Positions 1 to 12,505 of a stretch of DNA of 64,000 nt are shown here, piece after piece. Position 1 is the stretch's first letter. Each line of letters opens with the position of its first letter. A program made the position numbers and the translations under genes. The stretch is from Peptococcaceae bacterium SCADC1_2_3 (GTDB taxonomy: Bacteria; Bacillota; Desulfotomaculia; Desulfotomaculales; Nap2-2B): assembly GCA_000681355.2 (NCBI GenBank), contig JJNX02000001.1:1555-65554 (forward strand). Direction: 5' to 3'. The notes below the pieces were generated by a model. It was not told where the DNA came from. It searched no databases and was given only the letters and a program-made list of their open reading frames with translations.

Positions 1-44
1 GTACATTATGCTGGTATAAAATGCAACCATTATTATCTTTTCAT

Positions 45-176
45 TCAGAATCAAGGCTTAGTGGAGCAGGCATCTTGCCTGCATTATAAGAATCAGAATC
101 AAGGCTTAGTGGAGCAGGCATCTTGCCTGCATTATAAGTAATCAGAATCAAGGCAGACACACAGGTCTGCCCCTAC
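45..176. repeat. REP-like cluster: two tandem ~46-bp units each with a GCAGGCA-tct-TGCCTGC hairpin, then a GTAG-type REP on the minus strand (GTAGGGGCAGACCTGTGTGTCTGCC)
   Basis: Direct repeats at 45-90 and 93-138, a partial third unit at 142-154, and a palindrome GGCAGAC/GTCTGCC ending in CCCTAC at 152-176. Confidence 0.8.
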
Positions 177-193
177 AGCCTACAGCCTGGTTC

Positions 194-308
194 CTTTCAG
201 TCCCCTTGTCATCGGGTCAATTGGTGCAACTGACCGTGAAAGGTCTTAAAAAAACCAGTTGTATTGCGGTCCTTTCAGTCCTATTGTCATTGAGTAAAGG
301 GTTATTTT
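194..308 (-). CRISPR. Minimal or degenerate CRISPR array: one intact 37-bp repeat, a ~41-bp spacer and one degenerate repeat
   Basis: 194-230 reverse-complements to GTTGCACCAATTGACCCGATGACAAGGGGACTGAAAG (GTT...GAAAG ends, typical of CRISPR repeats). A similar sequence starts again at 272 (ctttcagtcctattgtcattgagt). cas6 and csx14 fragments lie within 1.6 kb. Confidence 0.7.
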
Positions 309-428
309 TCCGAAAATAAATCTATTTTGAAATTCTAGACAACATTGATCTCTGGTGGCCTCTTGCTTATATAAATTATGCATGTTATAATTTTACAAAA
401 CAAAAAGGAAAGGAAAAGAGATGTAATT

Positions 429-626
429 ATGCAGAACATACAGGATATCTTTCACGGAATCATTAAGGACTTACCAGAGCTGACACCGAATCAACTAGAT
501 ATTCTTATTACAGAAGCAAGCCGAATTAAAAATGAGAAGCTAAAAAGGAAACATAACCCACTACTTGATATAATCGGGATAGCTGAAAAATGTCCTGAGG
601 ATGGAGCCAAGAATCGTCCAGATTAG
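429..626 (+). CDS. Small putative antitoxin (VapB-like), probably C-terminally truncated and without a toxin
   Basis: ATG at 429 inside ORF 378..626. The C-terminal PLLDIIGIAEKCPEDGAKN resembles antitoxins found beside PIN toxins. No toxin gene follows. Confidence 0.4.
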   Translation: MQNIQDIFHGIIKDLPELTPNQLDILITEASRIKNEKLKRKHNPLLDIIGIAEKCPEDGAKNRPD

Positions 627-789
627 GCAAGATTGAAACGCAAACCTTCGGCCCGGCGCAGGAGGGTGGTGATATCAGTTGTGTATTTGGCTTTATCCCA
701 ATTGCCACCCCGGCGTTCTAGTTCAGCAAAATCAACCACCCATTCGCTGGGGAGTGAAGTGCGGAAAGTATTGAGGTCTCAATAAACTG

Positions 790-1359
790 TCAACCATTTA
801 TAGCTGAAATTACCCTGGCGTGCTTTGCGTACGTAGTTTGGTAATGGATTTGTTCCGCTACGTCGGAGCGAAAGCGCCGCCATTCCCGAAATTTGTCGTA
901 AATACTGGTGAACTGGTTAGTAACGGTCTTTACACTTTTGTTTAGCCGGCGGGCAATGGCGGTGCTGTCTAAACCCTCACAAGCCAGGCGCACCACTTCC
1001 CGCTCTGCCGGTGTAAGCTTGTATTCGATAAACTCCCGTTTGCGCTGCCATTCTTCCCTTTGCCGCATCATTTTCTGGAATTGGATAGCCTCCCAGGGGT
1101 TTTCCCGCAGGGCCAGTCCGGTTAGGGCCGGCGACACCGCACTCCAATACAAAACGGGCACCGGAACCAGCCAAGTGCGGTCCCCGGGTGAAAGATGCAT
1201 TACCCGCTCACTCCCCGGCCGCCATCCTTCGGAAAGCAGGTGCCAGAGGCGGTCATCTTCATCAAATAAAAGCTGGGCTGTCACCATTCCGTATACGGCC
1301 ATGGGCTTGCGTCCCCCGGCAATGCAAAGATGAATCAGGTTTTCAAGCACCCTATTCAA
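790..1359 (-). pseudogene. C-terminal part of a CRISPR-associated Csx14/NE0113-like CARF protein fused to a LuxR-type HTH
   Basis: HLCIAGGRKPM is a CARF GGRK motif; LTPAEREVVRL...AIARRLNKSVKTVTNQ is a LuxR HTH. The N-terminal half of the CARF domain is missing. Confidence 0.65.
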
Positions 1360-1469
1360 ACGTCATACAAGAATGAATCCAAAAAACTAAGATAGGAGAA
1401 ACGTCTGTAATTAAGACAAGTATTCTTTAAAATTTCAAGGTATAATAAACCATATATATCTATTTCTTG

Positions 1470-1820
1470 CTAAACGATATAATTCCTTCCGTAAAGGGTT
1501 TCTCCGGGCAGATAATCCGTTTTTTGCTCCTGTGGCGGTTCCAGCACAAAAGGGCGGGGGATGTCGGAATAATTGCGCAGTGCTTCTGCCTTGGGAGGAG
1601 GGGAGGTTTCAAAAACAAAGTGGTAAGGACAATTTTCTTTAAGCAGGCAGTCCCCGCAGGTTTCCTTTTTTTTTACGCAAACCAGTTGTTTAAAAACCCG
1701 GGCAAAACCCCCTCTTAAGGTGGAACCCTTGTAGGGAGGTAAAACCAGCCCCTGTGGGCCGGCCGCCAGGACAATTTCGTATCCGGTGCAGGAAAAATCT
1801 TTCGGGCAGTTAATGAGCAT
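1470..1820 (-). pseudogene. cas6: Truncated Cas6 (DUF2276-type RAMP pre-crRNA endoribonuclease), N-terminal third only
   Basis: LPPYKGSTLRGGF...C..C.L...CPY..VFE...PRPFVLEPP is the typical N-terminus. The ORF ends at 116 aa with no Gly-rich C-terminal loop. RBS GGAGG upstream. Confidence 0.8.
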
Positions 1821-2295
1821 GAGAAGACCTCCCGTTAAATTTTAGACCCCAATACGCTCCTTGGCTAAAATATGATTACAAATATCAACACGAGCTTCAA
1901 TTACAACTATAAGATAATATTTAATGCTTCCTTTTGTTGAAGCAAACTTTATTGATTAATTATAGCATGGTAGGCTAAATAAGGAAACAACCATACCTGA
2001 CAAAAATAACTTAATTTTCCAGAGAGCAAAAAACTGCTGCCAAAGTCCTATTGACAAGGATTATCTGCTGGCCTTATAAATTTTAAAGAAATACAGCATA
2101 CCTGTATATCTATTAATTGTAACGTTTGATCCAAATTGTCCTGCCAGCAACTTGCGGGTATGACGAATCCATTTTGGCTTTCACTTTCCTGAAAAACCTT
2201 TCTTCTTTTTTACTTTTTATCTAAGGATCCTGCAATTATTACTTTGACAGCAAGTTATTCTGTTGCTACAATAAAAAGGAAATTTTAATGTTATT

Positions 2296-2772
2296 TTGCC
2301 AAAGGTGAGCTATATGCACCGCTCTCGGATAATTGAACATGACTTTCGCAGATATATTTCCCTACTTATTGAAAAACTTGAGAAAGATCAAGCTATAACA
2401 GCTATTTTTCTCTTTGGCTCTTATGCTCAGGGAAAACAGACCAGGTTAAGCGATATTGACCTGGCAATCCTGCTTGAACCAGATTACCCCCAGGAGGACT
2501 TTTTTAAAAAAAAGCTGGAATTACTGCCGGTGATAACTTCTATACTAAGAACAGATGAAGTTGATCTGATCATCCTTAACTGTGCTCCTTACTCCCTGGC
2601 ATACCGGGTTTTAGGCCAGGGGAAACTTCTTTATGAAAAAGAGGAAAGAAGAAGCCACCGGGTAAATTTTCAGGCTCAAGTTTATGTTGGCTACTTCGAC
2701 TTTCAACCGGTAGAGAAAGTAATTCACCAAGGATTGCGCCAAAGGATTAAGGAGGGCAGATTTGGTGGCTGA
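2296..2772 (+). CDS. Type VII TA antitoxin, MntA-family minimal nucleotidyltransferase
   Basis: GSYAQGKQTRLSDIDL matches GSX10DXD; overlaps the downstream HEPN gene. Confidence 0.9.
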   Translation: MPKVSYMHRSRIIEHDFRRYISLLIEKLEKDQAITAIFLFGSYAQGKQTRLSDIDLAILLEPDYPQEDFFKKKLELLPVITSILRTDEVDLIILNCAPYSLAYRVLGQGKLLYEKEERRSHRVNFQAQVYVGYFDFQPVEKVIHQGLRQRIKEGRFGG

Positions 2773-3175
2773 CAAAGATGTTCTTGAAAAACGCCTCCTC
2801 AAGCTTGAACATGTTTTACGCAAATTAAAAGTTCTTTCCGAAATTCCCCTGGAAAAATATCTGAAAGATGAAGGTATTCAAGACCGCGCCGAAAGAAATC
2901 TGCAGATTGCAGCTCAGGTTTGTATTGATATCGGTAGTCATGTTATTGCCGAAAAGGGATACCGGCCTCCTTACAGTTATGCAGACATTTTTAAAGTTTT
3001 AGAAGAGGAAGGTTGTTTACCCGAAGAACTGGCAAATACCATGCAGCAAATTGCCGGTTTTCGAAACATTCTCGTCCATGAATATCTGGAAGTAGATAAC
3101 AAAATAGTGTACGAGTGCCTTCAAAAAATAGAAGACTTCAAAAGGTTCGCTGCACATGTACTAACGTGGATATGA
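2762..3175 (+). CDS. HepT-family (DUF86) HEPN RNase toxin
   Basis: FRNILVHEY matches RX4HXY; coupled to the MNT gene. Confidence 0.9.
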   Translation: MVADKDVLEKRLLKLEHVLRKLKVLSEIPLEKYLKDEGIQDRAERNLQIAAQVCIDIGSHVIAEKGYRPPYSYADIFKVLEEEGCLPEELANTMQQIAGFRNILVHEYLEVDNKIVYECLQKIEDFKRFAAHVLTWI

Positions 3176-3476
3176 TTGAGCAAGCACCGCTTTAAATAAT
3201 TTCATGGTCGCAGGGTCAGGGTAACCACTTGGGGTTCCACCCCCATCACAGAATAATCACAAATTTTCAAAACTATTTGTTGTTATAATTGCATATTTAT
3301 GTTAGAATAATTGAAACTTATAAGTTGTGTTTTTGTATTTTGCAATTAGTCCTTATGTCAGGGGGTACGGCTAAGGAGTTTAAGGTGGCTAATTTTTATT
3401 AAAATTGGGGGTACAAGCAGGCTTCTCCTAAATTTTTAAAGAGTAAATTACAAAAAAATAAAAAGGAGGTTCAAAA

Positions 3477-3764
3477 ATGGCTTACTATATAATGTTGACA
3501 ACCCTTACAGACGAGGGAAGGAAAACTATTAAAGAGAATCCGGACAGGGTCGGAGAAGTCAATTATGAAGTCGAGGCCTTGGGGGCAAAAATAATTGCTC
3601 AGTATGTGGTTTTAGGCCAATACGACTTTGTAAACATTTTGGATGCTCCTGATAACAAGGTTGTGGCTAAAGTGGCGATGGAATTGGGTTCCAGAGGCAC
3701 ACTTAAGACTATAACCATGGCCGCCATGACTACCGAGGATTTTATTAATAGCATTAAAAAGTAG
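3477..3764 (+). CDS. GYD-domain protein
   Basis: LGQYDFV motif, 95 aa, RBS AGGAGG. Confidence 0.85.
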   Translation: MAYYIMLTTLTDEGRKTIKENPDRVGEVNYEVEALGAKIIAQYVVLGQYDFVNILDAPDNKVVAKVAMELGSRGTLKTITMAAMTTEDFINSIKK

Positions 3765-3870
3765 CATTTTATTAAGTATTGAATATAGTGGCTCTTCCAG
3801 ATTTTAAAAGTAACGACCCTCTGGCAGCTTGCTTGGGCCTTATTTTTGTCTCATCAGAAGGGGGATTTTA

Positions 3871-4791
3871 ATGTACGAGCTAATTATCATAGGCGGCGGG
3901 CCGGCGGGCATGACCGCCACGGTATACGCCGCCCGGAAAAAAATAAACACCCTTTTAATCAGCAAGGACATAGGGGGACAGCCCTTAGTTACCGCTAACA
4001 TTGAAAATTATATGGGCTACCAGTTTATAGAAGGACCGGAGCTAATGCAAAAATTTGAAGCTCAGATCCGGCAGTTTCCGGTAGAAATAAAAAACGGAGT
4101 TGAGGTAAAGAATCTGGCTCAAATAAAAAACGGTTTTACGGTAAAGACGGCAGAAGAAGAAGAATTCCAGGCCAAAACAGTGATTATTGCCACCGGTAAA
4201 AAGCCCCGGCCGTTAAACGTACCTGGTGAAGAAAAACTAAGGGGCAGAGGAGTAACATATTGTGCTATTTGCGATGGTCCTCTTTTTGCCGGGGAAAATG
4301 TGGCGGTAATTGGCGGCGGCAATTCTGCCCTGGAAGCTACAGACGACTTAATTAAAATAGCCTCCCATGTTTATCTTATTTCCAGAAGCTCTCTAACGGG
4401 TGATGCCGTAATTATTGAGCGGGTTAAAGGCGCTCCCAACCTGACCATACTTTTGAACTACCAGCCAACTGCCGTAGGGGGAACTGCTAGGGTAGAAAAT
4501 ATAACCGTCAAAAATTTAAAAACCAGGGAGCAACAGGATTTAACGGTAAGCGGTATTTTTGTAGAGATTGGGCTTATTCCTAATTCTGATTTAGTCCGTG
4601 AAATTGTCCCCCTTAACGAACTAGGGGAAATTAAAGTAAATTGCGCTAACGGAACAGAGGTGCCGGGTTTATTTGCCGCCGGTGATGTGACTGATGTTCC
4701 GGAAAAGCAGATTATTGTATCCGCGGGGGAAGGAGCAAAGGCTGCGCTGCAGGCCCATCGCTATCTGCAGCGGTTGAACGAGGCAAGTTAA
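3871..4791 (+). CDS. trxB: Thioredoxin reductase/AhpF-like FAD-dependent disulfide oxidoreductase
   Basis: GGGPAG, CAIC redox disulfide, GGGNSA and AAGD motifs; ATG at 3871 after AGGGGG. Confidence 0.85.
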   Translation: MYELIIIGGGPAGMTATVYAARKKINTLLISKDIGGQPLVTANIENYMGYQFIEGPELMQKFEAQIRQFPVEIKNGVEVKNLAQIKNGFTVKTAEEEEFQAKTVIIATGKKPRPLNVPGEEKLRGRGVTYCAICDGPLFAGENVAVIGGGNSALEATDDLIKIASHVYLISRSSLTGDAVIIERVKGAPNLTILLNYQPTAVGGTARVENITVKNLKTREQQDLTVSGIFVEIGLIPNSDLVREIVPLNELGEIKVNCANGTEVPGLFAAGDVTDVPEKQIIVSAGEGAKAALQAHRYLQRLNEAS

Positions 4792-4819
4792 CTGCCTGCA
4801 TCTGCATTTTCCCATTTTA

Positions 4820-4848
4820 GGAAGCAGGGGGACGTTCTTTTTGCTTCC
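4820..4848 (-). repeat. REP-like palindrome flanking the RAYT gene (left)
   Basis: Reverse complement GGAAGCAAAAAGAACGTCCCCCTGCTTCC matches the copies at 5672-5733. Confidence 0.8.
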
Positions 4849-4852
4849 TTGT

Positions 4853-5623
4853 CTAGGCCTTAAAGACCATATTTTGACTTAATCCAGTTACCCGGGCAAT
4901 CTGCCGCTGTGTTGCCCCTTCAATAACCTTGACTCGCCTAAGTATCTCATCTCGCTTTTGTTTCTCAATGGTTCGCAAAATTGTTACTGGCGCCCCATTT
5001 AACATAGCTTCAATCTCTGCTTTTAATTCACCATCGGGTTTCCTTTGTTTGATTCCATCACCAAGGCATGTATCCTGAATTTCCATTTTCATATACTCGT
5101 GAAATCTGTGTATCGCCTCAGTCCGCTCTTCGGCGAAAATCCCTAAAACGAAACCATCATCGGTCAGTCCAATTGGATTTTCAGGCCGGCCATAATATGC
5201 CTGGATGCTGCTCCAGCAATATTCTTCCGGTTTGCTTACCATCCCCGCTTTTACCGGATTGTTATGAATGTATCTGATAACGGTCAACAAATATCCATCA
5301 TCTTTAACACATTCACTTCTATAGCGACCCTGGAATACATGGCCGTTTCTTTGATATTTCCGGTTATACCACCAGGCATAACTGGTTCCTATGCGTTTCA
5401 TGATTTGGTGGATCTCTTCATTTTTTTCATGAATAAGCAAATGGATATGATTACTCATCAGGCAATATCCATACACTTCAAACTTGTCAGTCTTCACCCG
5501 GCCAAGAGTTCCCAGAAAACGCTGATAGTCATCTTGGTCGCAGAATATGTCCTGCCGGTTGATTCCTCTTGTCACGATGTGGTAAACTCCGCTCTCACAC
5601 CGCTCCCTTGCTTGTCTTGCCAT
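4853..5623 (-). CDS. REP-associated tyrosine transposase (RAYT; IS200-like HUH Y1 nuclease) with C-terminal HTH
   Basis: YHIVTRG, YCLMSNHIHLL (HUH), GHVFQGRY and RYIHNNPVKAG (catalytic Tyr); flanked by inverted REP copies. Confidence 0.9.
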   Translation of the reverse strand: MARQARERCESGVYHIVTRGINRQDIFCDQDDYQRFLGTLGRVKTDKFEVYGYCLMSNHIHLLIHEKNEEIHQIMKRIGTSYAWWYNRKYQRNGHVFQGRYRSECVKDDGYLLTVIRYIHNNPVKAGMVSKPEEYCWSSIQAYYGRPENPIGLTDDGFVLGIFAEERTEAIHRFHEYMKMEIQDTCLGDGIKQRKPDGELKAEIEAMLNGAPVTILRTIEKQKRDEILRRVKVIEGATQRQIARVTGLSQNMVFKA

Positions 5624-5671
5624 CTATCATCACGCTTTCAGATTTTCTTTATTATATCGAACAATTGCTAA

Positions 5672-5733
5672 GGAAGCAAGAAGAACGTCCCCACGCTTCC
5701 ACAAGGAAGCAAAATGAACGTCCCCTTGCTTCC
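5672..5733 (+). repeat. Two tandem REP-like palindromes (GGAAGC...GAACGTCCCC..GCTTCC) flanking RAYT (right)
   Basis: 5672-5700 and 5705-5733, inverted relative to 4820-4848. Confidence 0.8.
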
Positions 5734-5900
5734 ACCTTTGCTTCCAACGGAATGGCGGGTGCAAAGGGCGTCCCGACCGAATTGCTCGAAGGAAGCCCCT
5801 TCCGCAAACAACAGGGAAAAACCCCCAAAGTAGCAGTGGTAGTTCTGATGAAACCGTGTTATAATTCAAGTAGGATTTTCCTACAAGGAGGTAATTCCAA

Positions 5901-6224
5901 ATGGCCAATCAGATAGCCGTGCGGATAGACAATAAGGGCCGGGTTACCCTGCCCAAAAACATACGGCAGGCTTTAGGGGTGGATACGGGCGACACCGTAT
6001 TCCTCAAGTATGAGCCTGAAGGAAACTTGGTACGGATGAGCCGAGCCGTAGAAGACCCTATTGCAGTTTTATGGGAGCATGCTGAAAAGGAATACCAGGC
6101 GGGGAAAACGAAGGACTTGAGGGATTACGCCCGGGAGCAAGGATTAACCGATGTCTTAGAGGTTTTCGGTTCAGAACAAGGGCCATGCCCTAAAAGGGTT
6201 GCTACGGGACCTTCGGTCGCTTGA
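5901..6224 (+). CDS. AbrB/MazE-family antitoxin
   Basis: IDNKGRVTLPKNIRQALGVDTGD swapped-hairpin signature; RBS AGGAGG. Confidence 0.85.
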   Translation: MANQIAVRIDNKGRVTLPKNIRQALGVDTGDTVFLKYEPEGNLVRMSRAVEDPIAVLWEHAEKEYQAGKTKDLRDYAREQGLTDVLEVFGSEQGPCPKRVATGPSVA

Positions 6225-6375
6225 GTTTTTCCTGCCAGGAGGAGCCTGCCGGGCCGTTTATGCAGTTAAGACTGGGGAGCAGGTTTGTCTAGTGATTATT
6301 GTTGGCATCACGAAGGCCTTTACGAAAGAGCTGAGCGCATGGTAAGGGCGATTAGGCGACAGGGACTGCTGAAGT
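6151..6375 (+). pseudogene. Degenerate RelE/ParE-family toxin
   Basis: Manual translation gives GHALKGLLRDLRSLEFFLPGGACRAVYAVK...VCLVIIVG, then a frameshift into HEGLYERAERMV. There is an early stop after ATG 6151; the remnant sits directly after the antitoxin. Confidence 0.6.
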
Positions 6376-6434
6376 GGAAGTGCGCTAAATGTTTCGCCAG
6401 GTCAGGAGAAGGAAAACAGGCCAAAGCCACCAGG

Positions 6435-6560
6435 AAAATGTGGTTGATTGAAACCAAGGGCTGGGAAAAAGAAGATACTCTTTTAAAAGACGCCAGAGCA
6501 AACAAATGGTGTAAAGATGCCTCAGCTTATTTCAAGTCTTGGTCATTGAACACCTGGTAA
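6435..6560 (+). pseudogene. Fragment of the C-terminal nuclease domain of a type III restriction (Res-like) enzyme
   Basis: WLIETKGWEKEDTLLKDARANKWC resembles the ExKG...K...A..W motif of Res C-termini. Confidence 0.5.
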
Positions 6561-6707
6561 CAGGCTAAAGCATTAGAAATAATAATTTTAATTTTTTGGT
6601 TAGAAGTTAGGAAAAAAACTTATTTTGCATGGTTTTTAGGTGCTAATTTTTACGCCTGGATACAGTTTTTAGAGACATTTCAGTGATAAAAAGGGGGTGC
6701 AAAATCA

Positions 6708-7157
6708 ATGAAAACAAATTCCAAAGGTTATGTTATCACTGCGGATGTTTCATCTATTAGGGATATTATTTGTGATGAAGTTTGGCAGATTACCAGGTCC
6801 AGTAAGCATATTTCGGGTACTGTATGGGTTCCAGAGCTCGCCCCAAGTTCTCAATTATTCGAAAAATATCTTAAGGAGTGGAAGGATAATCCGGTAGAAG
6901 AGTGGTGGTACCTTTACAAAGATGCATTTAATAAAGAATTAAAATCAGCTAAAAAACTCGGCGCATTGAAAAAGCTGGGGAGATTAGTGGAATCGGGAAG
7001 AATTATTGCCTTGATTTGCTTTTGCAGAGACAGTGATCATTGCCACAGGGCTTTAGTAGGAGAACTTCTTAAGCAATGTGGGGTAGAGGTGGAAGAATAC
7101 GTTAAAAAAAAGAAAACCGAAACTCATACTTACGTTGAACAGTTGACTTTGTTTTAA
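6708..7157 (+). CDS. DUF488-family protein with C-terminal QLTLF motif
   Basis: ELAPS...LF, Y...F..EL and ALICFC...HCHR motifs; ends in EQLTLF; RBS AGGGGGTG. Confidence 0.75.
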   Translation: MKTNSKGYVITADVSSIRDIICDEVWQITRSSKHISGTVWVPELAPSSQLFEKYLKEWKDNPVEEWWYLYKDAFNKELKSAKKLGALKKLGRLVESGRIIALICFCRDSDHCHRALVGELLKQCGVEVEEYVKKKKTETHTYVEQLTLF

Positions 7158-7176
7158 GTAAAGGAGGAAATTTAGT

Positions 7177-7623
7177 TTGACAATTTATACTATCGGTTTC
7201 TCTAAAAAAAATTTAAGAGAATTTATTGCCAAATTACAAAACGCAGGGGTTAAAAAAGTAATAGATGTGCGTCTTAATAATACTTCGCAACTAGCAGGAT
7301 ATGCCAAGAAGGAAGACCTGGAATACATTCTTGATTTGGTGGGTATTGGCTACGAACATCACCCAGAACTAGCACCAACAGAAGAATTGTTGAAAGGTTA
7401 TAAACAGAAAAAGATTCCATGGGATCAATATGAGAGCGAATTCAACAAAATATTGCCAAAAAGGCAACCCCTCAAGAGTATTGATTTTGAAAATCAAAAT
7501 GGCTCTATTTGTTTACTTTGTTCTGAAGATAAACCTGACCGGTGTCACAGAAGACTTTTAGCAGAGTATTATAGCAGAAATTTACCAGGGGCAGGAGCAA
7601 GGGTAGAAATTAAACATTTGTAA
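7177..7623 (+). CDS. DUF488-family protein
   Basis: IYTIGFS, IDVR, ELAPT and CLLCSE..PDRCHR; RBS AGGAGG. Confidence 0.9.
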   Translation: MTIYTIGFSKKNLREFIAKLQNAGVKKVIDVRLNNTSQLAGYAKKEDLEYILDLVGIGYEHHPELAPTEELLKGYKQKKIPWDQYESEFNKILPKRQPLKSIDFENQNGSICLLCSEDKPDRCHRRLLAEYYSRNLPGAGARVEIKHL

Positions 7624-7693
7624 AAAGAGAATGGCGGATAAAACAGATACTTATTGTTTAATGGATCAATTTCTTTGGGGAGAGGAAGTTAAT

Positions 7694-8344
7694 TTGGAAA
7701 CAATTAGAATAGTTTGCCTGGCTAATTCGAGGAAATTGGGGGAGCGTTGTATAGCAGGAGTCGATTTGGAGACAGGAAAGTGGGTGAGACCAGTCAATGA
7801 AGGTGGAGCCGAATTGTCCTTAAAAGACATAAATTACGAGGATGGGTCAACGCCGCAGGTACTAGACATAATAAATATGCCGGTTATAAAACGACAACCG
7901 CTTTATTATCAGCCAGAAAATTGGGTTATAAATAGAAAAAATTTTTGGTCAAAGGTTGGAAGGCTTCCGGTAAGTAAGTTGCAACAATATTGTGAGAATT
8001 TACCCTTTATTTTTTATAACTCTAGTGATCGTTTGCCTCAAGATTTTATTTTGTCAAAAGGAATCGAACAATCTTTAATTTTGGTGGAAGTCGAAGGAAT
8101 ATGTATCGAAAAAAAATTACCCCCATGGAGAGCCAACTCTCAGGTGCGGGCAAAGTTCAAATATAATGGTATTTTCTACGACTTGGCAGTAACCGATATA
8201 CAGTGGGAACAGAAATTTTCGGGCCAACAAATAGAGATTGGGGAGTATCCTTGTAAAGGACGATTCTTGTTGACTATTGGCCTCGGAAAAGAGTTTAAAG
8301 GGGAACATTATAAACTGATAGTTAGTATTATAAAACTTGATTAG
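7694..8344 (+). CDS. Dual OB-fold domain protein
   Basis: IVCLANSRKLGERCIAG...WVRPV, QPENW, YDLAVTD and YKLI motifs. Likely start is TTG at 7694 after GGGGAGAGG (ORF track start 7631). Confidence 0.75.
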   Translation: METIRIVCLANSRKLGERCIAGVDLETGKWVRPVNEGGAELSLKDINYEDGSTPQVLDIINMPVIKRQPLYYQPENWVINRKNFWSKVGRLPVSKLQQYCENLPFIFYNSSDRLPQDFILSKGIEQSLILVEVEGICIEKKLPPWRANSQVRAKFKYNGIFYDLAVTDIQWEQKFSGQQIEIGEYPCKGRFLLTIGLGKEFKGEHYKLIVSIIKLD

Positions 8345-8514
8345 AGTAGACTAAAATGTTGGGTCAATGATAAATAAAAAAGGTGTTTTTGACCCAACTA
8401 TGGAAATACGCTAATATAGAAAAAGTTATAAAATTACCTAAGTTAGAGATGGTTTTACGATGGAAAAAGCAATTAATCCTATGAATTAGCAAAGTTAAAG
8501 GAGATGTTAACTTC

Positions 8515-8820
8515 ATGGCACGTAAAAAGAAAAGTGCAATTAACCAAACCAGAGGTATCCTGTACGGACTGGGTAAATTTTTAGGCGATGTTTTATCAGT
8601 ACAAAAGGGTACGGTAGGCAAGCGTGTAGCCAGAAGAGCAGCAGGTAAGGTGTCAGGCAGGTTATTGGGGAAGTTGTTTAAGTTAAGGATAGAAAAAATG
8701 TCAGAGCGATTTAAACCAACTGCACACTCCATTTTTACTTTCCATAAAATTACCCCCCTGCATCTGCATTTTCCCATCTTAGGTGGGCGAGGCAGGTGTT
8801 TAACTTTCTTCTTTCTTTAA
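8515..8820 (+). CDS. Small very basic hypothetical protein
   Basis: LYGLGKFLGDV..V.KG.VGKRVARRAAGK..GRLLGKLFK core; RBS AAGGAG. The tail runs through the islet boundary repeat. Confidence 0.55.
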   Translation: MARKKKSAINQTRGILYGLGKFLGDVLSVQKGTVGKRVARRAAGKVSGRLLGKLFKLRIEKMSERFKPTAHSIFTFHKITPLHLHFPILGGRGRCLTFFFL

Positions 8821-10371
8821 TAATCCGTATGCAATGCTGTCTACCAGGGCTTGCCAACTAGCTTCAATAATGTTAGGCGAAACTCCCACTGTTCCCCAGG
8901 AACGTTGACCGTCGCCGGTTTCAATAAGCACCCTTACCATCGCGCCGGTTCCGTCTTTTTCATCCAGCACCCGTACTTTGTAATCAGTAAGGTGCATTTT
9001 TTTAATTTCCGGGTAAGCTTCTTCTATAGCTTTACGCAGGGCATTATCTAAAGCGTTTACCGGCCCGTTTCCTTCGGCCGCGGTGTGAACGGTGTGGTTA
9101 TTAATAGTAATTTTAATGGTAGCCTCAGAATAAACGGTCCCATTTTCTCTTTTTTCAATTATGACGCGTAAATTTTCTAACTTAAACCGTTCCTTATGGC
9201 CCTGGTAAATTTTGCGTAAACGTAATTCCAGGGAGCCTTCTGCTCCTTCAAACTGGTAACCCTGGTGCTCTAATTCTTTAATCTCTTTTAAAATTGTGCG
9301 GTTTTCTTCTCCTGTTACGGGAGGAATAAAATTAAATTCTTTATATTTATATAAAAGATTTGAAGTTCCGCTAAGTTCTGAAACCAAAATCCGCCGCTGG
9401 TTGCCTACTATTGCCGGGTCAATATGTTCGTAAGTACTTGCCTCTTTTAAGATGGCGCTGGCGTGAACACCTCCTTTGTGGGCAAAGGCGCTTGACCCCA
9501 CGTAAGGCTGGGAGGACAGCGGATGCATGTTGGCCAGTTCACTAACGTAACGGGCCAGTTCGGTCAGCCGGACCAGGTTGTTAAAAGGAATGGTAATAAC
9601 CTTGCATTTTAAAGTTAAATTAGGAATAACAGAACAAAGGTTGGTATTGCCGCAGCGTTCCCCGTAGCCATTAATTGTGCCCTGAACCTGACTTGCGCCG
9701 GCCTGGACAGCGGCTACGGTATTGGCTACCGCTAATTCCCCGTCGTTATGGCAGTGAATACCCAGAGGAAGGTTTATCTCTTTCTTCACCTGGTCAATTA
9801 TAGGCCCCATTTCATGAGGCAAACTCCCGCCGTTAGTATCACATAGCACAATCACTTTTGCGCCTCCCTCCCGGGCTGCTTTTAAAGTAGCCAGGGCGTA
9901 TTCGGGATTTGCTTTAAAGCCATCAAAGAAATGCTCGGCGTCGTAAAAAACAGCTAACCCATTTTGACTTAAATAAGCAACAGATTGCTTAACCATGTTT
10001 AAATTTTCGGACAAAGAGGTAGCCAGGGCCCGGGTAACGTGAAAATCCCACGATTTTCCCACTATGGCAGCGGTAGACACTTTTGCCTCCAGAATACTCC
10101 GGATGTTTTTGTCTTCCGCGGCCTCCATACCAGGTTTTCGGGTACGCCCAAAAGCTACAATTTTTGTATTTACCAGGCGGTGCTCCTGTATGCGCTTAAA
10201 GTAAGTAATGTCTTTGGGATTAGAGCCTGGCCAGCCGCCCTCGACATAATGAAAACCTAATTTATCCAGTTTTAAAGTTATTTTTATTTTATCTTCAACC
10301 GAGAAGGAGATGCCTTCTCCTTGCGTCCCATCGCGTAACGTGGTGTCGTAAATTTCTACCGTAGTCAACAT
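8800..10371 (-). CDS. cimA: Citramalate synthase (LeuA family)
   Basis: DTTLRDGTQGEG, EGGWPGSNPKD, YDAEHFFDG, GERCGN, AFAHKGGVH and LeuA regulatory domain. Confidence 0.92.
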   Translation of the reverse strand: MLTTVEIYDTTLRDGTQGEGISFSVEDKIKITLKLDKLGFHYVEGGWPGSNPKDITYFKRIQEHRLVNTKIVAFGRTRKPGMEAAEDKNIRSILEAKVSTAAIVGKSWDFHVTRALATSLSENLNMVKQSVAYLSQNGLAVFYDAEHFFDGFKANPEYALATLKAAREGGAKVIVLCDTNGGSLPHEMGPIIDQVKKEINLPLGIHCHNDGELAVANTVAAVQAGASQVQGTINGYGERCGNTNLCSVIPNLTLKCKVITIPFNNLVRLTELARYVSELANMHPLSSQPYVGSSAFAHKGGVHASAILKEASTYEHIDPAIVGNQRRILVSELSGTSNLLYKYKEFNFIPPVTGEENRTILKEIKELEHQGYQFEGAEGSLELRLRKIYQGHKERFKLENLRVIIEKRENGTVYSEATIKITINNHTVHTAAEGNGPVNALDNALRKAIEEAYPEIKKMHLTDYKVRVLDEKDGTGAMVRVLIETGDGQRSWGTVGVSPNIIEASWQALVDSIAYGLLKKEES

Positions 10372-10451
10372 TTTCGCTCCCTCAAATGCTTCATAAAGTC
10401 TAATTTAATCTAAGATAGTTTAACTTCTTAATCCTCTTACTACGTTATTTT

Positions 10452-11021
10452 TTATTCTTTTGATATTTGAACTTCTAACTCATGTTTTAAAGGATTTAAT
10501 TTTTCCTCGTACGACTGCTTTAAAAAAGCCAGGTCTTGTTGCCATTCATCTTTTGCCGCGGGATTAATTTCTATAATTGCCTCTCCGGAAATTTTAAGGG
10601 CTGTTAACCTTTTTCTTCCTTCTATTGCTAACTCCTCTTTTTTCTTTTGGTTTATTTGGTCGTACTGTTCAAAAAGGGCCTTTATTTTTTCAATTATTTC
10701 TTTAAAGGCTGTCTGTTCCTCAAAGATTACGGAAAGGGCTTGCTTGACAGCCGTTAATCTTTTTTGGTTACCTGTTTCAATGGCCTGGATAAGTTTTATG
10801 GCCATGGCCTGTTTAACTACTTCTTTTTCCTTACCAAAGTATCTTTTTAGTTCATGTTCTAATTGACGCGGGTCAGCTTGCTCTAAATATCTAACCGCTA
10901 AATTACTTCCAATCATTGAGCATTTTTCAACGTTATATTTGTCTATCTGGTCTTTAGGTAATTCCTTAATATTTTGGGCTTTTTCCATGGCTATTTCCCA
11001 GGCTTTTTTTATTTCGTCCAT
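10452..11021 (-). CDS. Hypothetical helical protein
   Basis: 189-aa ORF, RBS AAGGAG, IKKAWEIAMEK N-terminus. Confidence 0.7.
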   Translation of the reverse strand: MDEIKKAWEIAMEKAQNIKELPKDQIDKYNVEKCSMIGSNLAVRYLEQADPRQLEHELKRYFGKEKEVVKQAMAIKLIQAIETGNQKRLTAVKQALSVIFEEQTAFKEIIEKIKALFEQYDQINQKKKEELAIEGRKRLTALKISGEAIIEINPAAKDEWQQDLAFLKQSYEEKLNPLKHELEVQISKE

Positions 11022-11129
11022 ATTTTTTCTCCTTAACGCTATACTTTTTGTTTACTTCCTTATATAATAACTTATAATTTTTCTAAAAAAAATGTTTTTT
11101 AAAGAAATTTTTTAAGAGGAGGACTTATT

Positions 11130-11861
11130 ATGTTTCATGAAAATGCTGATTACCAATCGGTAAAAGTACTTGAAAATCTATACGGCTACCTTTGGCAAGG
11201 TATAGGCAATAACTGCAATACTTATCTTTTTGCCCATCTTCTTGAAGGAAAATGTCCCCACGTGCTCATTGATCCAGGACATATTTCCAATGAATTTGGT
11301 AGTCCGTGTTTTGACCAGCTTTTGGTCGCCTTGCAAAAAGACGGGTTTGATGCTGCCTCCATTGGTTTAATTATAAACACCCATGCTCACCCGGATCACT
11401 GTGAAGCAAACCAGGCCTTAAAACAAAAAAATGGGGAAGTGCTTATCGCCCTTTCCCAAATAGAAGATGAGTTTCGTAAAACAGTGGGTGAAAAATTATA
11501 TGCTCTGCTAGGAATGACCGCTCCAGTCTTTGAGCCACTTTTGCTTTTAAGGGAAGGCCAGTTAAATTTGGGCGAAATTTCTTTACGTTTAATTCACACC
11601 CCCGGCCACTCACCAGGTTCTATATCTATGTATTGGGAGGAGAAGAAAGTCCTGATTACCGGCGATGTTCTATTTGTAGGCAGTATTGGCCGTACAGACT
11701 TTCCCAGCGGGGACATATCTCTTTTAGAGCAAAGCATCAACAAACTGGCCTCCTTAGAAATTGATTACTTGCTTACCGGCCACGCCACAGAATACGGGAG
11801 CATTTTAACTGATCAGGATAAAATTAAACGTAATTTTCAAATGGTCCGGTTATTTTTTTAA
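11130..11861 (+). CDS. MBL-fold metallo-hydrolase
   Basis: THAHPDH, HTPGHSPG, TGD and GH motifs. Confidence 0.88.
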   Translation: MFHENADYQSVKVLENLYGYLWQGIGNNCNTYLFAHLLEGKCPHVLIDPGHISNEFGSPCFDQLLVALQKDGFDAASIGLIINTHAHPDHCEANQALKQKNGEVLIALSQIEDEFRKTVGEKLYALLGMTAPVFEPLLLLREGQLNLGEISLRLIHTPGHSPGSISMYWEEKKVLITGDVLFVGSIGRTDFPSGDISLLEQSINKLASLEIDYLLTGHATEYGSILTDQDKIKRNFQMVRLFF

Positions 11862-11869
11862 AGTTATTT

Positions 11870-12505
11870 TCATTTTGGCGCGGTTTCCTTGGCCATTCTT
11901 TCCTGCAATTTTTCTCTTTGCCAGCGGTGAATATCGTCTAAAGCAGGTGGGGCAACGTAAAATACCTGAATTGAAGCAGGAAATTGCACGGCGTGTTCTT
12001 CACGGATAAACAAAGCCCCTACCTCGCTTTCTTTTAAAGTTGCGTCAATTTGTTGGGCCATAAAGTTATATCTTTTTTGACCGGCCTCCTGATAAAATTC
12101 GGTAACTTTTTGAAACACTTTTTCCGTCATAATTACCTGCAAACAATTGCCCCAATCAACAAATTCATAAAATAAATTAACATCCTCGGTGGTCTGGATT
12201 TCTGCCCCCTTATCATACTTGCTTTTGATAAGCTGGTAGCCTTTTTCATTTAACTCTTTGATTATATTTAAGCCTTCTTCGCCATTATGTAAATTGGTTT
12301 CACAATAAATCTTATTTATTATCCCAATTTTTAGCTCTAGTTTATTTATCTGTTCTGCTACTTGTTGCCAGTAATGCTCAATTAATTTTAAATAATCCTG
12401 GGGGAAATTATCCCTGGCGTAAAATAAAGGCACCAAAAATAATTTCCTCCCTTTTTTAAATTCTTCTACGTTGGGTTTTTCAATTTTGCCCAGTATTTCC
12501 GACAT
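11870..12505 (-). CDS. Hypothetical protein
   Basis: 211-aa ORF 3 bp downstream of the cupin gene. Confidence 0.7.
   Translation of the reverse strand: MSEILGKIEKPNVEEFKKGRKLFLVPLFYARDNFPQDYLKLIEHYWQQVAEQINKLELKIGIINKIYCETNLHNGEEGLNIIKELNEKGYQLIKSKYDKGAEIQTTEDVNLFYEFVDWGNCLQVIMTEKVFQKVTEFYQEAGQKRYNFMAQQIDATLKESEVGALFIREEHAVQFPASIQVFYVAPPALDDIHRWQREKLQERMAKETAPK

What the first reader, a model, noticed from the sequence alone, without database searches (positions are those of the whole stretch)
6708..8344. Intact DUF488 + DUF488 + dual-OB operon: candidate uncharacterised DNA-acting conflict/repair system
Seen: three co-oriented, closely spaced genes, each with an RBS, are intact while neighbouring cargo (RelE, type III Res) is decayed. 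They sit in a direct-repeat-bounded islet near a CRISPR remnant and TA pairs. Both DUF488 paralogues keep the C-x-[CE/SE]...CHR catalytic-type motif but differ strongly at the N-terminus (one has IYTIG/IDVR, the other lacks it). Known: comparative genomics places DUF488 in the rhodanese/Cys-phosphatase superfamily, often next to dual-OB proteins and DNA ADP-ribosylation or damage-repair genes. I know of no experimental function for this module. Inference: an OB-fold ssDNA sensor plus two Cys-dependent enzymes act on modified or damaged DNA, either as anti-phage defence or as counter-toxin repair.
Basis: partly seen in the sequence, partly recalled or inferred. Interest (0 to 1): 0.82.

Follow-up and report, generated by a model that had tools for sequence, protein, structure and literature searches.

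The report
DuOB plus two DUF488 gene cassette
Three intact neighbouring genes encode a double DNA-binding (OB-fold) protein and two cysteine-phosphatase-like enzymes; this cassette is widespread and mobile, is already listed as an untested phage-defence candidate, and has an unknown biochemical job.

Summary
Window 6708-8344 carries three intact co-oriented genes: a DUF488-N3a protein (D1), a canonical short DUF488 (D2) and a DuOB tandem-OB protein.

It is not a new kind of system. DuOB and D2 match PADLOC's untested phage-defence candidate PDC-M45, components A and C (1e-51 and 2e-50). In 77 of the 80 best DuOB loci from other genomes, DuOB sits beside two DUF488 genes or a fused pair.

The window differs in one slot. 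The usual ~210-aa "B" DUF488 is replaced by a separate DUF488 clade. The same variant recurs in other genomes of the phylum. In a Pelotomaculum MAG it lies inside a BREX-like operon. On plasmids and viral contigs this slot holds DUF4326, fused to mSLOG on the viral contigs tested.

DuOB is elsewhere fused to RecQ helicases, ABC ATPases and DUF488.

The cassette lies in a 3.99-kb islet bounded by direct repeats. The islet is absent from a same-genus genome.

Best reading: a mobile, conflict-associated module that processes DNA ends or adducts. No experimental function was found in the searchable literature.

The parts
6708..7157 (+). D1: 149-aa DUF488 of the N3a type. It fills the slot held by the ~210-aa 'B' DUF488 in most relatives and keeps C104, C106 and C112-H-R.
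   Evidence: PF22751 3.6e-22; only 3.5e-5 to PDC-M45B; invariant columns in 18 D1-like sequences. D1-like rows form their own clade (SH-aLRT 98).
7177..7623 (+). D2: 148-aa 'C-type' DUF488, the conserved core enzyme candidate. Motifs: YTIGFSKK, DVRLNNxSQ, LAPT, LLC115-S-E117 ... C123-H-R-R.
   Evidence: PF04343 3.1e-27. PDC-M45C 2.3e-50; 27 invariant columns in 28 sequences, 43-76% identity to the window protein. AF2 pLDDT 89. PTP/DSP-fold matches, Z up to 8.4.
7631..8344 (+). DuOB: tandem OB-fold protein. The longest ORF is 237 aa; the likely true start is TTG 7694, giving 216 aa.
   Evidence: PF22557 3.1e-57. PDC-M45A 1e-51; pLDDT 91.9, residues 1-22 at about 53..
6557..6586 (+). Promoter-like site (9 of 12 consensus positions) in the 147-nt AT-rich spacer upstream of D1. 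This is a consensus match only.
   Evidence: The region gave 8 promoter-like hits against 6.5 expected, so it carries no weight alone. All 8 terminator-like sites in 5500-9000 are on the - strand.
4785..4821 (+). Left copy of the 37-nt direct repeat bounding the islet.
8747..8783 (+). Right copy of the 37-nt direct repeat bounding the islet.
4853..5623 (-). IS200-like Y1 transposase (256 aa) inside the islet. It is flanked by inverted 31-33-nt hairpin-like repeats at 4820-4852 and 5670-5733.
   Evidence: Y1_Tnp 9.1e-16. (inverted repeats I1, I3). (33-nt tandem repeat).
5901..6224 (+). MazE/AbrB-type antitoxin-like gene inside the islet. The expected partner toxin is not intact.
   Evidence: MazE_antitoxin 3.8e-10. 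(AbrB family 9e-8). (stops in the downstream frame). (no Pfam hit for 6199-6342).
6405..6524 (+). C-terminal remnant of a ResIII-domain (type III restriction-like) protein, within ORF 6285-6560.
   Evidence: 26 of 40 residues identical to residues 846-885 of a 935-aa PF04851 protein.

Best explanation
The three genes form one horizontally mobile cassette of the DuOB + paired DUF488 kind, listed in PADLOC as candidate PDC-M45. In the window's version a separate N3a-type DUF488 clade replaces the usual 'B' subunit.

Likely working (inferred, not shown):
1. The tandem-OB protein DuOB binds single-stranded DNA, or a DNA end or junction.
2. DuOB brings in the two Cys-phosphatase-fold DUF488 enzymes.
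3. The highly conserved short DUF488 (D2; C115, E117, C123-H-R) does the chemistry. This would be removal or transfer of a phosphate, or of a phospho-sugar group, at a DNA terminus or adduct.
4. The variable second subunit (B-type DUF488, N3a-type DUF488 or DUF4326/mSLOG-DUF4326) tunes substrate or ligand specificity.

The biological role is most likely in conflicts between hosts and mobile elements: defence against phage or plasmid DNA, possibly as an accessory to BREX-like systems.

Shown: gene content, conservation, linkage, fusions, mobility and folds. Inferred: DNA binding, catalysis, complex formation and the defence phenotype.
For: LINKAGE. 77 of the 80 best DuOB loci carry DuOB with two DUF488 genes or a fused pair (L011 has a B-C fusion; L062 a DuOB-DUF488 fusion). 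The gene order is A-B-C in 55 loci.

CATALOGUED CANDIDATE. PDC-M45A/C match at 1e-51 and 2e-50. PDC systems are untested candidates found embedded in BREX, DISARM or type I RM systems (Payne et al. preprint, passages read).

EMBEDDING SEEN DIRECTLY. In L005, the N3a variant in a Pelotomaculum MAG, the triad lies between DUF6079 + DNA methylase and SNF2 helicase + PglZ. In L121 it lies between an Eco57I-type methylase and PglZ.

DNA LINK. DuOB is fused to full RecQ helicases, to RQC/HRDC/HTH_40 domains and to AAA_13/SMC-like ABC ATPases. The DuOB model (pLDDT 91.9) resembles tandem-OB DNA binders: HIN-200 at E 5e-4, TM 0.35; OB1 against TEBP-alpha at Z 7.5.

ENZYME LINK. The D2 model (pLDDT 89) resembles Cys phosphatases: laforin DSP Z 8.4, archaeal PTP 8.0, baculovirus RNA 5'-phosphatase 7.1, RapZ-C 6.4. 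The Cys/CHR motifs are invariant in the C-type and D1-like alignments, and all 77 B-type ORFs carry a CHR motif.

MOBILITY.
- DuOB occurs in 18 of 401 sampled genomes of the phylum (18 of 278 genera) and in 5 of 41 relatives.
- The islet is absent from congener G403.
- Decayed copies exist: L006, L156, L136 and the genome's own second locus L003.
- DuOB is on 23 of 72,556 plasmids and 14 IMG/VR contigs.
Against: - No experiment on DUF488, DuOB, DUF4326 or PDC-M45 was found, so every functional step is inference.
- Most neighbours of chromosomal copies are ordinary genes. In 148 neighbours (two genes either side) from 38 loci, the commonest Pfam families after AlbA_2/HATPase_c_4 (5 members) were ABC transporters and hydrolases. 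PADLOC hits at 1e-10 were few: mad3 5, pAgo 5, REase_II 2, and one locus with PglX/PglZ.
- No classical effector such as a nuclease or pore is present.
- Carriage on small plasmids beside rep/par genes, and on viral contigs, fits a function that serves the mobile element equally well.
- The fold matches are modest (Z <= 8.4; Foldseek E >= 0.018 for D2).
- The islet's G+C (0.355-0.368) is not distinctive, because other parts of the window are as low.
Confidence: 0.55

Rival explanations
1. The cassette serves mobile elements or repairs DNA rather than restricting invaders. DuOB coats or recognises ssDNA, for example entering or replicating plasmid or phage DNA. The R-P-fold enzymes then remove a blocking group put there by a host defence or toxin: an ADP-ribose-derived adduct, a 3'-phosphate or another terminal block.
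For: On plasmids (3 of 3 inspected: Acinetobacter, Citrobacter, Klebsiella) the order is DuOB, C-type DUF488, DUF4326, beside rep/par, TA and RM genes. On 7 of 14 IMG/VR loci the third gene is a ~196-215-aa protein; it was mSLOG+DUF4326 in 4 of 4 tested, and one such locus lies next to a terminase large subunit. Iyer et al. 2022 (PMC9503650, passages read) propose that viral DUF4326, often fused to SLOG/Macro/NADAR, processes phosphates on ADP-ribose derivatives. The RecQ fusions suit repair.
Against: The cassette is embedded inside BREX-like defence operons. There were 0 matches in 50,697 cultured phage genomes. No macrodomain, NADAR or DarT-like gene appeared among the Pfam hits for the islet genes or for the recurrent neighbours. 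The window's own copy is chromosomal and carries DUF488-N3a, not DUF4326.
Confidence: 0.25
2. The cassette is an accessory, non-conflict DNA-maintenance module. It would be a RecQ-associated end-processing factor used at stalled forks or breaks, and it spreads sporadically because it is dispensable.
For: RecQ-DuOB fusions occur in 9 of the 80 loci, judged by ORF length (901-979 aa). One of them was domain-checked, and one partial fusion lies at a locus edge. Further fusions appear among the library representatives. Most chromosomal neighbours are housekeeping genes.
Against: The distribution is patchy even within a genus, and the islet is an indel between congeners. Copies sit on plasmids, viral contigs and inside BREX-like operons. 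Copies are frequently pseudogenised.
Confidence: 0.12
3. In this genome the cassette is inert hitch-hiking cargo of a decaying islet, and its intactness is incidental.
For: The adjacent islet genes are decayed: a Res remnant and no intact toxin next to MazE. The genome's second DuOB locus has a 5'-truncated DUF488. No RNA data were available.
Against: All three ORFs are full length. They keep every column that is invariant across their families. The same three-gene variant is intact in other genomes (L004, L005, L133, L150).
Confidence: 0.05

Closest known systems
PADLOC phage-defence candidate PDC-M45 (components A = DuOB, B = long DUF488, C = short DUF488)
   Same: DuOB matches PDC-M45A at 1e-51 and D2 matches PDC-M45C at 2.3e-50. 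The genes are adjacent and co-oriented. Relatives with the A-B-C set are embedded in BREX-like operons.
   Different: The B slot is filled by an N3a-type DUF488 of 149 aa. It matches PDC-M45B only at 3.5e-5 over residues 98-145 and forms its own clade. The gene order is [N3a]-C-A rather than the commonest A-B-C. PDC-M45 is itself untested. I infer that it is one of the 145 candidates of Payne et al. from its name only: the main text has 0 occurrences of 'PDC-M', and the supplement tables were not seen.
DuOB/DUF488 systems of the RapZ-C-DUF488-DUF4326 clade (Burroughs & Aravind 2023, NAR Genom Bioinform lqad029)
   Same: [quoted passage not shown] The Pfam family names DuOB, DUF488-N3a and DUF488-N3i appear to derive from that work.
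   Different: The paper is not held. I saw only its entry in another paper's reference list. I therefore cannot say which of the variants described here it already covers.
HIN-200 tandem-OB DNA sensors (AIM2, IFI16, p202) and RPA/Cdc13/TEBP tandem OBs
   Same: Two consecutive OB folds. These are the best Foldseek matches (p202 HIN1 at E 5.2e-4). OB1 aligns to TEBP-alpha, RPA and PriB at Z 6-7.5.
   Different: TM scores are only about 0.35 and sequence identity is 6-14%, so this is shared architecture, not shown homology. DuOB has its own invariant polar set: CLANSRK, WxRPV, QxENW, TD, YKL.
Cys-dependent PTP/dual-specificity phosphatases, including the RNA 5'-phosphatases (BVP, PIR1), and the RapZ C-terminal domain
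   Same: The D2 model aligns over most of its length: laforin DSP Z 8.4, Sulfolobus PTP 8.0, BVP 7.1, RapZ-C 6.4. A Cys lies at the end of the strand before the active-site loop, followed by a helix that starts with C-H-R.
   Different: The loop is C-x7-C-H-R rather than the classical C-x5-R. Sequence searches against the PDB found nothing. Foldseek E-values are >= 0.018. The substrate is unknown.
Genes embedded in BREX systems (e.g. BrxU, as named in the Payne et al. preprint)
   Same: In L005 and L121 the triad lies between the methylase and the PglZ/helicase genes of BREX-like operons.
   Different: No BREX-family match was found among the ten window ORFs scanned (793-8341), and the ORFs listed to 16 kb show none on inspection. 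The cassette stands alone there in a small islet.

Membership tests
PADLOC PDC-M45 | Component A (DuOB protein) | tested here: met
   PDC-M45A (PDLC04653) at 1e-51, residues 24-235 aligned to profile positions 4-224 of 230.
PADLOC PDC-M45 | Component C (short DUF488) | tested here: met
   PDC-M45C (PDLC04658) at 2.3e-50, residues 1-136 of D2.
PADLOC PDC-M45 | Component B (long, ~205-225-aa DUF488 with a C-terminal extension) | tested here: not met
   D1 matches PDC-M45B only at 3.5e-5 (21.5 bits, residues 98-145). It is 149 aa and lacks the TIGHS/DVRS motifs of B. D1-like rows form a clade apart from B (SH-aLRT 98 for each).
PADLOC PDC-M45 | Anti-phage activity | not testable with these tools
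   The preprint calls the PDC systems untested. No later test was found.
Pfam DuOB (PF22557) | Profile match over the curated cut-off, and two OB folds | tested here: met
   194.4 bits against a cut-off of 27. The AF2 model has two beta-barrel halves at pLDDT 91.9. Tandem-OB matches.
Pfam DUF488 (PF04343) / DUF488-N3a (PF22751) | Profile match over the curated cut-off | tested here: met
   D2: PF04343 96.1 bits (cut-off 22.2). D1: PF22751 79.3 bits (cut-off 27) and PF04343 42.5 bits.
Rhodanese-phosphatase (Cys-phosphatase) superfamily | Rossmann-like fold with a Cys at the end of the strand before the active-site loop and an Arg at the start of the following helix | tested here: inconclusive
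   Fold matches to DSP/PTP/RapZ-C reach Z 6.4-8.4 but Foldseek E >= 0.018. The motif C-x7-C-H-R is conserved, but it is not the classical C-x5-R. No coordinates were available to check the geometry.
DNA ADP-ribosylation reversal systems (DarTG-like) | A macrodomain or NADAR hydrolase next to a DarT-type transferase | tested here: not met
   No such Pfam family appeared among the hits for the islet proteins or the recurrent neighbours. The only indirect link is DUF4326/mSLOG in the plasmid and viral variants.
BREX (as an embedded accessory) | Location between core BREX genes (PglX/PglZ/BrxC) | tested here: not met
   Not met in the window: the islet holds only a transposase, MazE, remnants and the triad. 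Met in relatives L005 and L121.

The most novel reading that the evidence does not exclude
The cassette is a new type of nucleic-acid immunity, or counter-immunity, whose effectors are Cys-phosphatase-fold enzymes acting directly on DNA. A HIN-like tandem-OB sensor would load a heteromeric DUF488 pair onto ssDNA ends. There the pair would remove or transfer phosphate-linked groups. These could include the phosphotyrosyl or phosphoseryl links that tie relaxases, rolling-circle Rep proteins or terminal proteins to invading DNA. The swappable third subunit (B, N3a or mSLOG-DUF4326) would set which end chemistry or nucleotide signal is recognised.
Probability: 0.15. Interest if true: 0.85.

Novelty: new variant of a known kind. 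Interest (0 to 1): 0.5.

Why it matters
The DuOB/DUF488 cassette is widespread. The DuOB profile finds 4,312 protein clusters at 50% identity. A pattern scan finds 510 loci in a collection holding one genome for each of 185,579 species. It occurs in bacteria, archaea, plasmids and viral contigs, yet I found no experimental function for any of its three parts.

If the enzymes act on DNA ends or adducts, this would be new chemistry for the Cys-phosphatase fold, and a new accessory or stand-alone layer of prokaryotic immunity or DNA repair.

- the invariant residues of each protein;
- the three interchangeable forms of the third subunit;
- natural fusions (DuOB-DUF488, B-C, RecQ-DuOB) that argue for physical association;
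- a natural BREX-embedded copy of the exact variant found here.

Tried and rejected
- Complex prediction for DuOB(23-237) + D2 + D1, with D1 as partner, scored 0.01 in both runs. This is 'no answer' and counts neither for nor against binding.
- Sequence searches of the PDB with D2 and with the DuOB profile found nothing meaningful; best E-values were 0.31 and 0.074.
- NCBIfam has no model for any of the three proteins.
- Rfam found nothing in 1-12000.
- tblastx of the islet's non-triad parts (5560-6710, 8340-8800) against all fetched loci found no match at 1e-4.
- Pfam at E<=5 found nothing for the putative RelE piece, for ORF 6285-6557, for ORF 8515-8817 or for ORF 1473-1820. The Res piece also gave no plasmid match.
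- Sequencing runs: no RNA holder was listed, so expression was not examined and read laying was not used.
- The G+C argument for foreign origin was dropped, because equally low values occur elsewhere in the window.
- Burroughs & Aravind 2023 could not be read. The supplement tables of Payne et al., which should define PDC-M45, were not available.
- I considered DuOB as an SRAP/HMCES-like Cys enzyme because of its conserved CLANSRK motif. I dropped the idea for lack of any supporting fold match.
Full report
WHAT IS THERE

Window 6708-8344 holds three intact + strand ORFs:
- D1, 6708-7157, 149 aa;
- D2, 7177-7623, 148 aa, TTG start;
- a third ORF, 7631-8344, 237 aa.

Pfam assigns them clearly. 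D1 is DUF488-N3a (PF22751, 3.6e-22), with weaker hits to DUF488 and N3i. D2 is DUF488 (PF04343, 3.1e-27). The third is DuOB, the 'Dual OB-containing domain' (PF22557, 3.1e-57). NCBIfam has no model for any of them.

The gaps between the genes are 19 and 7 nt. GGGGG (6693-6697) and GGAGG (7163-7167) precede the first two starts (read). DuOB probably starts at TTG 7694, behind GGGGAGAGGAAG. Two things point that way: homologues start about 4 residues before the conserved RIVCLANS, and residues 1-22 of the model are disordered (pLDDT about 53).

The motif claims hold. D1 has C104-F-C106...C112-H-R. D2 has C115-S-E117...C123-H-R. Only D2 has YTIGFS/IDVRLNN.

THE ISLET

A 37-nt direct repeat lies at 4785-4821 and 8747-8783, with 86% agreement. 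Its 21-nt core occurs at only these two places in the window (0 expected by chance), and its 20-nt core only there in the 2.59-Mb assembly.

In the same-genus genome G403, window 3263-4791 and window 8784-10381 are contiguous, about 63 nt apart. The 3,992 nt at 4792-8783 are therefore an insertion/deletion difference between congeners.

The islet holds:
- an IS200-like Y1 transposase with inverted hairpin-like repeats;
- a MazE/AbrB gene;
- a C-terminal remnant of a ResIII-domain protein, 26 of 40 residues identical to residues 846-885 of a 935-aa protein;
- the triad;
- a small unassigned ORF.

The 'RelE remnant' could not be confirmed. Upstream of the islet lie a nucleotidyltransferase (Polbeta/NTP_transf_2)+HepT pair and a Cas_NE0113-domain protein. 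There is no CRISPR array in 1-9000.

IT IS A KNOWN, UNTESTED KIND

PADLOC-DB matches DuOB to PDC-M45A (1e-51) and D2 to PDC-M45C (2.3e-50). The Payne et al. preprint (passages read) describes 145 untested 'phage defence candidate' systems. They were found as genes embedded in BREX, DISARM and type I RM systems and were added to PADLOC. The name PDC-M45 does not appear in its main text, and its tables were not available to me.

I recall, but could not read, that Burroughs & Aravind 2023 define a RapZ-C-DUF488-DUF4326 clade and predict DNA-end processing in conflict systems.

HOW CONSERVED IS THE LINKAGE

A DuOB profile finds 4,312 clusters at 50% identity (E<=1e-3; 3,429 at <=1e-10) among 1.84 billion representatives. 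A pattern scan of a collection holding one genome for each of 185,579 species found 510 DuOB-encoding loci, and the best 80 were fetched. They span many bacterial phyla and archaea.

Among those 80 loci:
- 76 have DuOB plus two separate DUF488 genes within 3 kb;
- 1 (L011) has DuOB plus a B-C fusion;
- 2 (L052, L079) have RecQ-DuOB plus B only;
- 1 (L073) is cut by a contig end.

The gene orders are: A-B-C in 55; B-C-A in 9; A-A-B-C in 4; A-B only in 3; N3a-C-A in 2; A followed by C and B on the opposite strand in 2; five others once each.

'B' is a ~205-225-aa DUF488 with a C-terminal extension. 'C' is a ~145-aa DUF488 that is 43-76% identical to D2 across phyla, with 27 invariant columns. 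All 77 B ORFs and 75 of 77 C ORFs carry a CHR motif.

WHAT IS DIFFERENT HERE

D1 is not a B protein. It matches PDC-M45B only at 3.5e-5. Its close family is small: 8 clusters in the 5.8-billion-protein word-indexed search.

In a quick maximum-likelihood tree, the B, C, D1-like and stand-alone N3a proteins each form their own clade, with SH-aLRT of 98, 94, 98 and 100. The join of D1-like with stand-alone N3a is unsupported at 49 (the sampling is described in steps_to_tell).

The N3a-C-DuOB arrangement recurs:
- the named MAGs L004 and L005, and L006 with a split DuOB;
- G296, G050, G285, G080 (split DuOB), G395 and G410;
- G122, with a different order and a divergent DuOB;
- a decayed remnant in congener G402.

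In the even sample of the phylum, DuOB occurs in 18 of 401 genomes, in 18 of 278 genera. Eight of these genomes carry B-C-DuOB. Six, including this one, carry N3a-C-DuOB. Among 41 relatives, 5 have DuOB.

A THIRD FORM OF THE VARIABLE SLOT

DuOB is absent from 50,697 cultured phage records. It is present on 23 of 72,556 plasmids. In the 3 plasmids inspected the order is DuOB, C-type DUF488, DUF4326, beside rep/par, RelE and NotI-type RM genes.

Of 14 IMG/VR loci, 6 are A-B-C, 7 are A-C-X and 1 is a fragment. X was an mSLOG+DUF4326 fusion in 4 of 4 tested. One such locus lies beside a terminase large subunit. One A-B-C locus (L121) lies between an Eco57I-type methylase and PglZ.

So the constant core is DuOB plus the C-type DUF488. 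The second enzyme is interchangeable among members of the same clade.

FUNCTIONAL LEADS

- DuOB is fused to full RecQ helicases (DEAD, Helicase_C, RecQ_Zn_bind, RQC, HRDC, HTH_40). Nine loci with ORFs of 901-979 aa show this by length. One was domain-checked (L069), and there is a partial one at a locus edge.
- DuOB is also fused to RQC alone, to AAA_13/SMC-like ABC ATPases and to DUF488.
- The DuOB model (pLDDT 91.9) is two OB barrels. The best matches are HIN-200 domains (E 5e-4, TM about 0.35), Teb1, Cdc13, RPA and CST. OB1 aligns to TEBP-alpha, RPA and PriB at Z 6-7.5. These are modest scores.
- The invariant polar residues of OB1 (N32, S33, R34, K35, R39, W51, R53, Q94, E96, N97) lie on strands and hairpins. 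From general knowledge of OB folds these form the usual ligand face; that step is inference.
- The D2 model (pLDDT 89) resembles Cys phosphatases and RapZ-C (Z 8.4 to 6.4), although Foldseek E-values are weak.

NEIGHBOURHOODS

Apart from the triad, little is conserved. One family, AlbA_2 + HATPase_c_4 (about 435 aa), sits directly upstream in 10 of 80 loci, and SNF2 helicases occur in 3.

I scanned 148 neighbours (two genes either side) from 38 loci. Ordinary transport and metabolic families dominate, and defence-model hits at 1e-10 are few.

Against that, the closest well-assembled relative of the window's variant is L005, a Pelotomaculum MAG with 55% DuOB identity. It has the triad between DUF6079 (BrxC-like) + methylase and SNF2 helicase + PglZ.

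READING

Membership of the DuOB/paired-DUF488 kind is secure. The role is inferred. I favour a conflict-associated module that processes DNA ends or adducts (0.55). The alternatives are a function serving mobile elements or repairing adducts (0.25), non-conflict maintenance (0.12), and inert cargo (0.05).

The complex prediction gave no verdict, and no RNA data were listed. The few DUF488 or DUF4326 mentions I read are incidental.

Noticed in passing
L003 (own genome, contig C37) 1-3866 and 9337-10436: ORFs that look like a pyrrolysine gene set (PylS C-terminal part, PylB, PylC, PylD), identified by eye and not profile-tested. They lie a few kb from a second DuOB gene (232 aa, intact). The DUF488 upstream of that DuOB is C-type but 5'-truncated, and it sits at the contig end. 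The organism may read some TAG codons as pyrrolysine. The window's DuOB ends in TAG, and the next in-frame stop is 33 nt further on.
   Followed up: partly
window 4820-5733: An IS200-like Y1 transposase (4853-5623, - strand) is bracketed by inverted 31-33-nt repeats (4820-4852 against 5670-5700 and 5701-5733) that are themselves hairpin-like. This resembles a REP-associated tyrosine transposase arrangement.
   Followed up: partly
L005 821-13459: A Pelotomaculum MAG has a BREX-like operon: DUF6079, DNA methylase, SNF2 helicase and PglZ. The N3a-DUF488 / DUF488 / DuOB triad is inserted between the methylase and the helicase.
   Followed up: yes
L011 1941-2882; L062 1780-3033; P0188: Natural gene fusions: an archaeal 313-aa protein joins a B-type and a C-type DUF488, and DuOB is fused to a DUF488 in L062 and P0188. 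These fusions argue that the three proteins act together.
   Followed up: partly
L045 6564-7868 and 9 other loci: A ~435-aa Schlafen/AlbA_2 + HATPase_c_4 protein lies directly upstream of DuOB in 10 of 80 loci. In the 148-neighbour sample, PADLOC models mad3 and pAgo each match 5 neighbours, the same number as carry the AlbA_2/HATPase_c_4 domains; whether they are the same proteins was not checked.
   Followed up: partly
window 45-154: A 48-nt unit is repeated 2.3 times in tandem at 98% identity, at the very start of the window. Its nature is unknown.
   Followed up: no
window 790-3175: A 189-aa protein with a partial Cas_NE0113 domain plus a GerE/LuxR HTH (790-1359, - strand), and an intact nucleotidyltransferase (Polbeta/NTP_transf_2)+HepT pair (2296-3175). 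ORF 1470-1820 (- strand) looked Cas6-like by eye but had no Pfam hit at E<=5.
   Followed up: partly
L136 (G402, same genus): Short fragments of a D1-like DUF488 and of DuOB lie side by side with no C-type gene between them. This is a decayed copy in a congener.
   Followed up: no
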